Assembly: GCA_964354405.1 (NCBI GenBank)
Contig: CAYGZP010000001.1
Coordinates: 272,879-336,133, forward strand
Direction of reading: 5' to 3'
Source of the DNA: Candidatus Woesearchaeota archaeon
Lineage (GTDB): Archaea; Nanobdellota; Nanobdellia; Pacearchaeales; UBA284
DNA length: 63,255 nt
The position numbers were made by a program. Every line of letters begins with the position of its first letter. Within the stretch, counting starts at the first letter, position 1. This document shows, piece after piece, positions 54,001 through 57,000 of this stretch.

Positions 54001-57000
54001 AAATGTTAAAGATAATCTTCCAGGTTCTTCAAGCCCTATTCTTACCATTTGGGTCATTCTTTCTATTTGCTTTTCCATTTCATGAAACATTTGCTCCTGA
54101 AAATCAATTATCTCGCGAGGGATTGATACAGTATAACTGTTGCCAACCATTCTCAACTTAACCGCAAATGGTCTTTGTCTTAACTCTTGGAATTTTTTGT
54201 ATTCTTCAATGTCGTTGGGATGATAGATATACTTGCCGCACTTTTTGCATTCCAAAGCTCTCAATGAAAAACCATTTCTTACAACAGTAACCTTATCCAT
54301 TTTCTTGCTGCACTTGCTGCACATGATAGTTTCATCAAATATGTCTGTCATTTTAGTGTATCCTTCGTGTATACACATATAATATACACTATTTAAATAT
54401 TTCGATTTGATTTTTGGTTTCTAAAGGAGTTAAAAAATATATTATTGACTATAGATTTGTTTATAAATCTCCGGTTTCTTTGTGTATTATGGCTGAAGAA
54501 AAATAAAATGGATAAAATAAATTTAGTTGATTTGTGTAAAAAGGCGGGTTTTAATAGATTTGGAGTTCAAGAGATATTTGATAAAGAAAAAAATTATATT
54601 CGAAAAATTTACAAAAGATTTGAAGTACCGGAGGACGTTTTATTGTATTACAGGGGTTTGCCTCCTGAAGGAATAGAACTATTTCTTTTTCCTAATAAAG
54701 AATACTTAAAGGAACAAGGAGATTTTTACTCAGAACAAGATAGAATAGATGATAGTTTTCAATATTTTTGCCTCCCGAATAATGCGAGAATAGAATTAGC
54801 TGCTCAAAAAATGAGAGGTATACTCCAGCTGGGTATCGATGTGACTATTGAAGGTAAAGTCCCAGTTTTTTATAAACCTAAAATAGGAAAAGGTAATATA
54901 CGTATAACAGAATTACCCCCTGATAAATTTGGAGAAGAAGCCTTAGAAATTCTTTTAGCTTATGTAGAATTTGCTAATAAAAAATAATTAATCGTCTGAA
55001 ATAATGCTGGCTATTAAGATTTAGATTCAATTAATTGATTTTCATATCAATTTGCTTTTCATAAATCTTTTCGATGATTCTGATTGCCATTTGATTCAGT
55101 TTTTTCAAATTATCTTCAGTGTGTTCAGAAGGCACAAAGATAAGGAACTCGTCGCCAGCGCTTTCATTAAGCCTGTGTCCTATAACATCTGCAACTCTTT
55201 TGCCTGTAGAAGTCAGATTTTCATGTCTTATATTATGTTTGATTGCCTGTCCTATAATCCCAAGATGCTTGTCAACTTCAGCATAGCCCAGTTTGTTATT
55301 CCACTCGTGCAAATCATCCAAATCAAATAACAGGTAATAACCCTCTGTAATCCCTTTCTGTTTTAATTCCTCAAGTCTTAAAACAAATCCTGTTTTGTTC
55401 AACAAACCCGTGACAGGATCTCTTAATGAGAAATTTTGCAAAATCTTCACTTGCTCATCCGAGAGCCCTTTAGCTAATTTATAATATTCTTGAACTCGTT
55501 GCTTAAAACTGTCAGGGATTTTGCTTTTGAGCCTCTGTCCTTCCCAAACCTTGATGTTAAAGTCATTCTTGCCTTTCTCTTTCTTGGCTTCTGCCATGGC
55601 TCTCGCCGCCTCTTCGAAACTGCGGCCGATGCCGCATGAGACTTTGATAATGTCGTTTCTCGTCGTCATCTTCAGCTTTAAATTTCACCAGATTTTAGCA
55701 ATAATCGCAAAATGGCGAATTACATTAAATATAAAGAATATTTATAAATCTTAGCTTTCTGTTTATATTATGGCAGAAAAAGAGATAGATTTCAAAGCCA
55801 TTGAGAAGAAATGGCAGCAAGAGTGGGAAAAATCTAAAGTCTTCCAGGTTAAGGAAGACAAGACAAAGAAAAAATTCTACTGCCTTGAGATGTTTCCCTA
55901 TCCGAGCGGCGAAGGCTTGCACATGGGCCATGCTTTCAATTACACAATCGGAGATGTTTTCGCGAGATTCAAAAGAATGCAAGGGTTCAATGTATTATAT
56001 CCTACAGGTTATGATTCTCTTGGATTGCCTGCAGAGAACGCAGCAATTAAAGCAGGGGTTCATCCTAAGACATACACTGAAAAAGCAATTATCAATTTTA
56101 TCAAACAACAAAAAACTCTCGGTTTTAGTTACGATTGGGGCCGCGTTGTAAAAACTTCCGACCCAGATTATTATAGATGGGATCAATGGATTTTCTTAAA
56201 GATGTTTGAGAAAGGGCTTGCATTCAGAAAAAAAGCTCCTGTAAACTGGTGTCCGAAATGCAACACCGCCCTGGCAAATGAACAAGTCCATAATGGCAAG
56301 TGCTGGCGCCATGAAGACACGAATGTAGAGATAAAGCCATTAGAACAGTGGTTTTTCAAAATCACAGATTATGCCGAAGAGATATATGAAGACATCAAGA
56401 AACTAAAAGGATGGCCTGAGAACATCAAAGCAATGCAAGAGAATTGGATTGGCAAGAGTCATGGCATTAACATTAATTTCATAATAAACAAAAAACCATG
56501 GCCCATCTTCACAACTCGCCCAGATACAATTTACGGAGTTACATTCATGGTTATCGCAGCACAACATCCAGAGCTCATGAAACTTGTTACAAAAGAACAA
56601 AAATCCAAGATAGAGGCATTCTTGAAGAAAATTAAAAGCACTAGTGAAAAAGATATGGAAGAGCTCGAGAAAGAAGGTGTTTTTACAGGTTCTTATGCAA
56701 TCAATCCAGTTAACAATGAAAAAATTCCTGTTTATACAGGTAATTTTGTCCTCGCGGAATATGGCTCAGGCATGGTTATGGCTGTTCCAGCTCATGATCA
56801 GCGCGATTTCGAGTTCGCCAAAAGATATAATTTGTTGCTAAAAGAAGTTATAAGACCAATTTACGGCGAAAAACAAAAGAATGAGGAATTCAGAAAAACA
56901 ATTTCGGCAGTTGTTCATAGAAAAAGAGATAACAAATTTTTAATATTAAAATGGAAAAATAATGAATGGGTTTCTCCTGTTGTCGGAGGAATTGATGAAG

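What a model noticed while it worked through the whole genome (the two positions that open the first line are those of the whole stretch)
55031..55669. Circularly permuted GGDEF family
g00390 has only the first two thirds of the GGDEF domain at its C-terminus (signature NESAGDEF), and the missing strand-helix-strand (VSxG...AK..GxN) stands at its N-terminus. I read it as a natural circularly permuted diguanylate cyclase that keeps its metal and guanine ligands and may make c-di-GMP or another cyclic dinucleotide. No permuted GGDEF domain is described; it would be a new topology for the largest cyclase family and a scaffold for engineering.
Evidence so far: 59 homologues of 161-245 aa; invariant or near-invariant D116, D118, N124, D133, R166, G172-D173, E174 and N-terminal S11-C12-G13, A28-K29. 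Pfam GGDEF covers model positions 2-111 of 161 only. Model pLDDT 87; residues 67-212 align to the first 115-130 residues of GGDEF structures, Z about 10. The N-terminal 40 columns align by HHalign to positions 127-165 of canonical GGDEFs, E 3e-4, score 24.2 against 6.9-15.5 for 30 shuffles. 6 of 201 order genomes, all UBA284.
(Added by a program. Inside this text positions count along the whole contig: contig position 272,879 is position 1 of the stretch shown here. "Call 12" and the like, gene names such as g00115 and contig names such as C1 are that model's own, and its searches are not shown. The text may have been shortened before it was handed on; [...] marks where a part breaks off. The agent that wrote the report below was given it as the finding of a first reader that could run no searches.)

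Follow-up and report, generated by a model that had tools for sequence, protein, structure and literature searches.

The report
Circularly permuted GGDEF cyclase, DPANN archaea
This archaeal gene encodes a GGDEF nucleotide-cyclase domain that ends two thirds of the way through the fold, while a segment matching the missing end sits at the front of the chain; the layout is conserved in over a hundred related proteins, those with a name coming almost all from tiny DPANN archaea, and it likely still makes a cyclic dinucleotide signal, which is untested.

Summary
The 212-aa ORF (55031-55669, minus strand) carries GGDEF elements from the DxLT turn to helix alpha3 at residues 82-211 and stops there. 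Residues 8-42 match the missing beta4-alpha4-beta5 (HHalign 81%, E 1.2e-5; 0 of 100 shuffles as high).

New here: three natural unpermuted proteins carry the same short motif at their C-terminus, one with the same hairpin insertion. The family is wider than first reported: 59 close homologues plus 54 further full-length clusters, in Pace- and Woesearchaeota. Metal, base and phosphate ligands are nearly invariant, including K29 on the moved piece. The guanine-reading Asp becomes Ser/Thr in 21 of 66 members, as in cGAMP-making Hypr GGDEFs.

Against: activity is untested, the catalytic hairpin has a 3-residue insertion, the canonical cross-dimer residues are not kept, and the strand's place in the sheet was not read from coordinates.

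Odds: permutation about 0.93; active c-di-GMP synthase about 0.5. No description was found in four literature searches. This scan had already reported the family six times on other DNA. Verdict: new variant of a known kind.

The parts
55031..55669 (-). Gene for the 212-aa stand-alone permuted GGDEF-fold protein
   Evidence: ORF; family
55544..55648 (-). Residues 8-42: relocated beta4-alpha4-beta5 (strand 10-15, helix 18-30, strand 38-41), with G13, G15, A21, A28, K29, K32; K29 is inferred to be the gamma-phosphate lysine
   Evidence: HHalign to canonical columns 133-169; C-terminal motif of unpermuted P0122, P0151, P0173; model; conservation
55427..55543 (-). Residues 43-81: linker with two helices (53-67, 71-81) joining the old C-terminus to the old N-terminus; possible dimerisation element (inferred)
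   Evidence: Model; no match to canonical GGDEF columns, score 6.8; longer and variable in distant members
55037..55426 (-). Residues 82-211: GGDEF core from the DxLT-type wide turn (D84-P-V-T87) through alpha0, beta1, alpha1, alpha2, beta2, beta3 to alpha3
   Evidence: Pfam and NCBIfam; HHalign 99.5%, canonical columns 19-125; structure searches
55271..55324 (-). Residues 116-133: D116 (metal), H121 (at the place of the catalytic lysine), N124 and D133 (guanine pocket); roles inferred from alignment
   Evidence: Alignment read against DgcR D174, K179, N182, D191 (PMC8041772 passages)
55187..55228 (-). Residues 148-161: variable insertion between R148 and D161, the two residues at the place of the RxxD I-site
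   Evidence: R148 59 of 66, D/E161 66 of 66, spacer 2-38 residues
55145..55174 (-). Residues 166-175: signature hairpin R166...A-G-D173-E174-F with a 3-residue insertion
   Evidence: 6 residues between R and D in 60 of 66 and 5 in 6 of 66, against 3 in the canonical motif
44504..45529 (+). Separate canonical GAF-GGDEF gene about 9.5 kb away; context only, not part of the permuted protein
   Evidence: Pfam full-length GGDEF 1-161; also near the gene in L001 and L002

Best explanation
The protein is a stand-alone GGDEF-type domain whose last strand-helix-strand is predicted to have moved to the N-terminus by circular permutation, and it likely still works as a metal-dependent cyclic-dinucleotide synthase, most likely making c-di-GMP in this Asp133 member. 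Shown: the element order, the conservation and the early end of the chain. Inferred: strand 10-15 completes the sheet beside beta1, and helix 18-30 brings K29/K32 to the GTP gamma-phosphate. D116, D173 and E174 would bind Mg, N124 and D133 would read guanine, and H121 would replace the catalytic lysine. Two protomers, each with one GTP, would meet through the helices before the D84 wide turn and condense the two GTPs. With no sensor domain, it would be constitutive or set by the linker, a partner or an I-site-like R148/D161 pocket. Odds by step: permutation about 0.93; catalytic about 0.7; c-di-GMP if catalytic about 0.7.
For: Core and N-terminal profiles cover adjacent, non-overlapping parts of a 124-domain canonical profile, columns 19-125 and 133-169; score 27.7 against a maximum of 17.4 in 100 column shuffles, 13.9 reversed, 6.8 for the linker. 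Unpermuted P0122 has the core (79 bits, residues 41-193) followed by the family's N-terminal motif (31.5 bits, 212-251) and the same hairpin insertion; P0151 (30.5 bits) and P0173 (20.7 bits) carry the motif 36-42 residues after GDEF; best of 1034 background ORFs of this genome, the gene itself aside, 7.3 bits. Pfam GGDEF reads P0151 and P0173 through to model 158-161. 65 of 66 members end 31-65 residues after D173 and one ends 15 after; no separate C-terminal piece among 1246 frames of the window. Two AF2 models of distant members give the same element order, pTM 0.85 and 0.83. D116 65, N124 66, R166 66, G172 65, D173 66, E174 65, K29 58, K32 53, H/K121 65 of 66 at 23% mean column identity. 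pN 0.12-0.14 on the moved piece with saturated synonymous sites against the two closest loci. The genome also has 3 canonical GGDEFs and a GAF-HD-GYP-like gene; 4 of 4 same-family carriers tested have HD_5. Some archaeal GGDEFs show cyclase activity in vivo, and A/SGDEF variants can be active (PMC13725321, abstract and sections 9, 17, 18).
Against: No activity data. The catalytic hairpin has a 3-residue insertion. The cross-dimer residues proposed for DgcR (D183, H187, D282, Y286) map to N125, Y129, A22 and A26; positions 125 and 26 are variable and 22 is E in 34 of 66. The invariant catalytic lysine is His in 46 of 66. An HMM of the canonical C-terminus does not find this protein's N-terminus as a single sequence. 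The three unpermuted relatives were picked by a profile that includes the motif, so their scores are selected; the narrow motif HMM also gave 17.9 bits to a PfkB kinase. The N-terminal piece resembles mCpol (37 of 66 members at E up to 1) and GTP cyclohydrolase III at least as much as GGDEF. HD_5 was found in 0 of 6 distant carrier genomes searched (incomplete genomes).
Confidence: 0.5

Rival explanations
1. Permuted and active, but the product is not 3',3'-c-di-GMP: a mixed, 2',3'-linked or linear dinucleotide, made constitutively through an mCpol-like dimer.
For: The short strand-helix link matches the mCpol C-terminus (E 0.076 Pfam, 0.0069 NCBIfam; 37 of 66 members). Canonical cross-dimer residues are lost. 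Ser/Thr at 133 in 21 of 66, 20 of them in one clade of support 93, the Hypr cGAMP signature (PMC6456294 passages). No canonical GGDEF was found in 2 of 5 distant carrier genomes and no HD_5 in any of the 5.
Against: This member has N124, D133 and GDEF, the guanine-specific set; the core is plainly GGDEF (Z about 10). No Panoptes-like effector or defence gene among the 13 proteins scanned with PADLOC (two weak unrelated hits).
Confidence: 0.2
2. Permuted but catalytically dead: a GTP sensor or c-di-GMP receptor that keeps the nucleotide site and an I-site-like pocket.
For: Hairpin insertion, Lys-to-His change and lost dimer contacts. R148 59 of 66 and D/E161 66 of 66; a direct RxxD in 42 of 59 close homologues. 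No MshEN receptor found in this genome, so a receptor is unaccounted for.
Against: Both metal-binding acids and the fourth-position Glu (proposed general base, PMC6456294) are kept in 65-66 of 66 rows; known dead GGDEF domains usually lose them (own knowledge). A direct RxxD is in only 20 of 66 wider members.
Confidence: 0.2
3. Not a simple permutation: a truncated GGDEF fused to an N-terminal piece taken from another palm-fold enzyme (mCpol or GTP cyclohydrolase III), or a piece that packs elsewhere or swaps between protomers.
For: Best library matches of residues 1-50 are mCpol and GCH III clusters at 0.93. The position in the sheet was not read from coordinates.
Against: Unpermuted GGDEF-type proteins already carry this short motif, and in the core tree they sit next to (P0151, P0173; support 81) or inside (P0122; clade support 97) the family. 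pLDDT is 92-95 over residues 11-30 with pTM 0.85.
Confidence: 0.06
4. A metabolic GTP enzyme of the GTP cyclohydrolase III kind that reuses the fold.
For: Language-model features of residues 1-50 are nearest to GCH III clusters; GCH III 2qv6 aligns at Z 5.1, rmsd 2.0 over 80 residues.
Against: GCH III is not among the Pfam hits of the protein or the 25 most shared families of the 66 members; GGDEF structures score twice as high; the DxLT turn, alpha0 and the N/D guanine pocket are GGDEF features.
Confidence: 0.03
5. Assembly artefact or decaying pseudogene.
For: Metagenome-assembled genome; a broken second copy exists in a relative.
Against: More than 110 independent proteins with the same order, conserved synteny and strong purifying selection.
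Confidence: 0.01

Closest known systems
Canonical GGDEF diguanylate cyclases (Pfam PF00990; PleD 1w25, WspR 3bre, DgcR 6zxb, LapD 3pjw)
   Same: Wide turn, alpha0-beta1-alpha1-alpha2-beta2-beta3-alpha3 (Z 9-10.6); residues at the places of the metal acids, the guanine Asn/Asp and the gamma-phosphate Lys.
   Different: beta4-alpha4-beta5 at the N-terminus; about 10 residues shorter between beta4 and alpha4; 3-residue hairpin insertion; insertion in the RxxD loop; His for the catalytic Lys; cross-dimer residues not kept; no sensor domain.
Archaeal GGDEF proteins of Sidorov et al. 2026 (PMC13725321)
   Same: DPANN hosts, GGDEF-only proteins; one Micrarchaeota protein has an R-x5-GDEF hairpin with the same spacing.
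   Different: The word 'permut' occurs in neither the text nor the supplement; Pacearchaeota are not named. That protein continues far beyond its GDEF motif. Its assay result was not in the sections I read.
Hypr GGDEF (GacA, cGAMP synthase; PMC6456294)
   Same: Ser/Thr at the guanine-reading position together with GDE[F/Y], seen in 21 of 66 family members.
   Different: This member has Asp; Hypr enzymes are unpermuted Rec-GGDEF proteins of bacteria.
mCpol/OptS of Panoptes (PF18182; PMC12657218)
   Same: Small stand-alone palm-fold nucleotide cyclase, also found in archaea; same short strand-helix link with an AK motif.
   Different: Below the family cut-off (13.8 against 26.4 bits), matching only the last 30 positions; no effector gene found alongside; this protein has the GGDEF wide turn and alpha0.
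Relaxase versus Rep HUH endonucleases (PMC4814116)
   Same: A known natural circular permutation of a similar sheet; TrwC (Z 6.1, rmsd 4.0, 131 residues, model 11-212) and MobM (Z 5.1) align across the whole first model.
   Different: Unrelated chemistry; middling Z; not among the top 50 for the second model. An analogy only.

Membership tests
GGDEF diguanylate cyclase (PF00990) | Pfam score over the curated cut-off | tested here: met
   40.3 bits against 23.8, model 2-109 only; 44 of 66 members match at E up to 1
GGDEF diguanylate cyclase (PF00990) | Element order b1-a1-a2-b2-b3-a3-b4-a4-b5 | tested here: not met
   Order is b4-a4-b5 / linker / a0-b1-a1-a2-b2-b3-a3; canonical order from PMC8041772
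GGDEF diguanylate cyclase (PF00990) | DxLT-type wide turn before alpha0 | tested here: met
   D84 64 of 66, T87 65 of 66
GGDEF diguanylate cyclase (PF00990) | R-x-G-G-[DE]-E-F hairpin with canonical spacing | tested here: not met
   R166...A-G-D-E-F with 6 residues between R and D (60 of 66) instead of 3; G-D-E itself 65-66 of 66
GGDEF diguanylate cyclase (PF00990) | Metal ligands (beta1 Asp and hairpin acids) | tested here: met
   D116, D173, E174 in 65, 66, 65 of 66
GGDEF diguanylate cyclase (PF00990) | Guanine pocket Asn and Asp | tested here: met
   N124 and D133 in this protein; D133 in 41 of 66 of the family
GGDEF diguanylate cyclase (PF00990) | Catalytic Lys on alpha1 and gamma-phosphate Lys/Arg | tested here: inconclusive
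   H121 (H 46, K 19 of 66); K29 58 and K32 53 of 66 on the moved piece; geometry not read
GGDEF diguanylate cyclase (PF00990) | Conserved cross-dimer residues (DgcR D183, H187, D282, Y286) | tested here: not met
   N125 variable, Y129, A22 (E in 34 of 66), A26 variable
GGDEF diguanylate cyclase (PF00990) | c-di-GMP synthesis from GTP | not testable with these tools
   Needs an enzyme assay
Hypr GGDEF (cGAMP synthase) | Ser/Thr at the guanine-reading position with GGDE[F/Y] | tested here: not met
   Asp133 in this protein; met in 21 of 66 relatives
mCpol / Panoptes | PF18182 score over the cut-off, whole domain | tested here: not met
   13.8 bits against 26.4, positions 83-110 of 114 only
mCpol / Panoptes | Linked effector gene | tested here: inconclusive
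   None seen among neighbours of 17 loci or in 13 proteins scanned with PADLOC 2023, which predates Panoptes
GTP cyclohydrolase III | Family profile match and two palm domains | tested here: inconclusive
   Not listed by Pfam; single domain; Z 5.1 to 2qv6; feature look-alike for residues 1-50 only

The most novel reading that the evidence does not exclude
An old DPANN family of circularly permuted palm-fold cyclases with a dimer mode of its own, which has diversified in product: c-di-GMP in the Asp clades and cGAMP or c-di-AMP in a Ser/Thr clade that reached the Hypr signature independently. In some Woesearchaeota it would be the only GGDEF-type enzyme, and one lineage (P0122) may have permuted back to the canonical order.
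Probability: 0.2. Interest if true: 0.82.

Novelty: new variant of a known kind. Interest (0 to 1): 0.62.

Why it matters
GGDEF is the largest family of nucleotide second-messenger cyclases, and I found no report of a natural permuted form. This one moves part of the substrate site to the other end of the chain and frees the end of helix alpha3 as a new terminus, which bears on how the domain folds, dimerises and can be fused to sensors. [quoted passage not shown] The Asp versus Ser/Thr split gives a built-in prediction about product.

Tried and rejected
Homodimer with GTP and Mg: no verdict, score 0.41 against a mark of 0.42; used neither for nor against. RNA runs: no RNA holder listed. Viral contigs: no relative confirmed for A1, P0173, P0151 or P0122; metagenome scan for P0122 found none, so its context is unknown; the word search for P0122 returned only itself. 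Longer forms (490-2000 aa): 12 hits, all ordinary multidomain GGDEF proteins; weak evidence, and 372-489 aa was not covered. The N-terminus-only hit in G097 was a PfkB kinase and is rejected as chance. No conserved operon across clades. No EAL or MshEN match in this genome, 98% complete. No solved structure matched the N-terminal piece by sequence. The relaxase alignment of model 1 was not in the top 50 for model 2. The careful tree did not finish; only the quick tree is used, with one badly cut row (L008) on a very long branch. Split gene or frameshift rejected: no C-terminal remnant in six frames of the window.

Full report
The gene. Window 55031-55669 (minus strand) is an intact 212-aa ORF. 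It lies head to head with a leucyl-tRNA synthetase-like gene and upstream of a zinc-ribbon/AbrB-like gene and a Cdc48-like gene (the synthetase and Cdc48 labels are my reading of the sequences, not scan results). The Cdc48-like gene downstream and the synthetase-like gene upstream recur in L001, L002, L003 and L005; L004 ends at the gene and shows the synthetase side only. Four of these five records are titled Pacearchaeota. This points to vertical inheritance in a DPANN archaeon. The genome (834 kb, 98% complete) also holds three canonical GGDEF genes, a GAF-HD-GYP-like gene and a DAC gene; EAL and MshEN were not found.

The domain stops early. Pfam GGDEF covers residues 82-201, model 2-109 of 161. 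Structure searches align residues 63/81-212 to GGDEF domains up to helix alpha3, for example PleD 284-405 at Z 9.0 and LapD at Z 10.6. In a 66-row alignment, 65 members end 31-65 residues after D173 and one ends 15 after. An HMM of the canonical C-terminus finds nothing in the 1246 reading frames of the window except the GAF-GGDEF gene, so this is not a split or frameshifted gene.

The missing part is at the front. The AF2 model (pLDDT 86.6, pTM 0.85) has strand 10-15, helix 18-30 and strand 38-41, then two linker helices, then the core. A distant member gives the same order (pTM 0.83). The canonical order is b1-a1-a2-b2-b3-a3-b4-a4-b5 (PMC8041772 passages). Against a profile of 124 canonical domains, the core aligns to columns 19-125 (99.5%) and residues 6-45 to columns 133-169 (81%, E 1.2e-5, score 27.7; 0 of 100 column shuffles as high, maximum 17.4; reversed 13.9; linker 6.8). 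The signal is modest because the family lacks about ten residues between beta4 and alpha4; the canonical C-terminal HMM does not detect the N-terminus as a single sequence.

Unpermuted relatives. Three natural proteins among the 150 best hits of the wide search carry the short motif at the C-terminus, behind an ordinary core. P0122 has the core at 41-193 (79 bits), the motif at 212-251 (31.5 bits), the same hairpin insertion and His at position 121. P0151 and P0173 score 30.5 and 20.7 bits, and Pfam reads them as GGDEF to model positions 158-161. The best of 1034 background ORFs, the gene itself aside, scored 7.3. Two caveats: these three were selected by a profile that includes the motif, and the narrower motif HMM gave 17.9 bits to an unrelated PfkB kinase. 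In a quick core-only tree (118 rows, 145 columns; the careful search did not finish), the 66 permuted proteins and P0122 form a clade (support 97), with P0151 and P0173 beside it (81). P0122 is on a long branch, so ancestor, reversion and misplacement cannot be told apart. Library matches for the N-terminal piece alone are mCpol (37 of 66 members at E up to 1) and, by language-model features, GTP cyclohydrolase III and GGDEF-like clusters. All are palm-fold nucleotide enzymes, so this supports the piece's identity but not its source. Relaxases, a known permuted fold (PMC4814116 passage), align across the whole first model (TrwC Z 6.1, residues 11-212) but are not in the top 50 for the second. 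The strand's position was not read from coordinates.

Range. There are 59 close homologues. Of the 149 new proteins among the 150 best hits of the 50%-cluster search, I took 54 as full-length members (196-279 aa). I left out seven fragments, one 388-aa member with long inserts, the three unpermuted proteins and the canonical GGDEFs. Near full-length matches occur in 6 of 401 genomes of the order, all in the window's family (5 of 23 besides this genome), and in 5 of 401 of the class. Named loci are Pacearchaeota, Woesearchaeota, Nanoarchaeota or 'archaeon'; two bins are titled Methanosarcinales and one protein record Nitrospiraceae, which may be binning errors and were not checked. Neighbours are kept within clades but not across them.

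Function. At 23% mean column identity the family keeps D116 (65 of 66), N124 (66), R166 (66), G172 (65), D173 (66), E174 (65), His or Lys at 121 (65), K29 (58) and K32 (53). By alignment these are the DgcR metal ligands D174/E217/E218, guanine ligand N182, catalytic K179 and gamma-phosphate K289/R293. The moved piece is under selection as strong as the core (pN 0.12-0.14 with saturated synonymous sites against the two closest loci). That pattern fits an enzyme or at least a metal-GTP site. Departures: a 3-residue insertion in the hairpin (60 of 66), His for Lys, and loss of the cross-dimer residues proposed for DgcR, which suggests another dimer geometry or no catalysis. Position 133, which reads guanine, is D in 41, T in 15, S in 6 and N in 4 of 66; 20 of the 21 Ser/Thr members fall in one clade. 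Ser/Thr with GGDE[F/Y] is the Hypr cGAMP signature, though the same paper shows that an Asp-to-Ser change alone does not make a canonical enzyme a cGAMP synthase (PMC6456294 passages). This member has Asp, and 4 of 4 same-family carriers tested have an HD_5 gene, against 0 of 6 distant carriers. I therefore favour c-di-GMP here and leave the product open for the distant clades.

Literature. The claim that no permuted GGDEF is described rests on four full-text searches of an open-access library: GGDEF + 'circular permutation' (10 papers), 'circularly permuted' + 'diguanylate cyclase' (14), permuted + palm domain + nucleotide cyclase (0), and GGDEF/permuted/Thg1/Cas10 with at least three terms (10 held, 9 listed). 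I opened PMC7824862, PMC7825114 and PMC3902914 by term search; their permutations concern other domains. The rest I saw as listings only. For PMC13725321 I read the abstract, sections 9, 17 and 18, term passages and a six-term supplement search: it shows activity for some archaeal GGDEFs, notes one Micrarchaeota protein with the same hairpin spacing, and never mentions permutation; its figures were not visible. PMC12657218 and PMC12657230 were seen as passages. Subscription papers were not searched. After forming my reading I found six earlier notes of this scan on the same family in other genomes; they are not independent evidence.

Verdict. A real, conserved, apparently unpublished circular permutation of the GGDEF domain in DPANN archaea. 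It works like a GGDEF cyclase by its ligands, but it fails the canonical membership tests of element order, hairpin spacing and dimer residues. New variant of a known kind; interest 0.62.

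Noticed in passing
L048:1-210 (G038:C14, minus strand): A second, broken copy in a same-genus genome: the N-terminal motif of about 40 residues, then an unrelated or out-of-frame tail and a stop, at a contig end.
   Followed up: partly
L087:3194-4399: A GAF-HD-GYP-like gene two genes upstream of a permuted member, on the other strand, in one Woesearchaeota locus; seen in 1 of 17 loci examined.
   Followed up: no
L083:6067-7773, L085:6772-7578, L088:1774-3480: In one distant clade the gene lies directly upstream of a Kef-type antiporter (Na_H_Exchanger + TrkA_N) and head to head with a TctA-family gene; possibly a target for a nucleotide signal, possibly only synteny.
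   Followed up: no
window 44504-45529: Canonical GAF-GGDEF gene with an intact GGEEF motif, kept near the permuted gene in L001 and L002.
   Followed up: partly
L016:868-2076 (G000:C1): GAF plus HD-GYP-like protein, the only c-di-GMP phosphodiesterase candidate found in the genome; its GYP region carries an insertion.
   Followed up: no
L026, L030-L036, L042-L046 and similar: Many genomes of the order carry a sensor-less canonical GGDEF of about 196 aa; in the quick tree these are not the sister group of the permuted family.
   Followed up: partly
P0151, P0173: Unpermuted GGDEF proteins with an mCpol-like short C-terminal link; P0173 hits both Pfam GGDEF and mCpol (E 0.0014) and may bridge the two families; host unknown.
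   Followed up: partly
L068, L069, L070, L072: Canonical-order GGDEF proteins of one other family of the class with a long charged insertion after alpha2, like the insertion in the permuted Woesearchaeota members.
   Followed up: no
window 48305-49420: A 371-aa protein with an N-terminal membrane segment and many cysteine-rich repeats.
   Followed up: no
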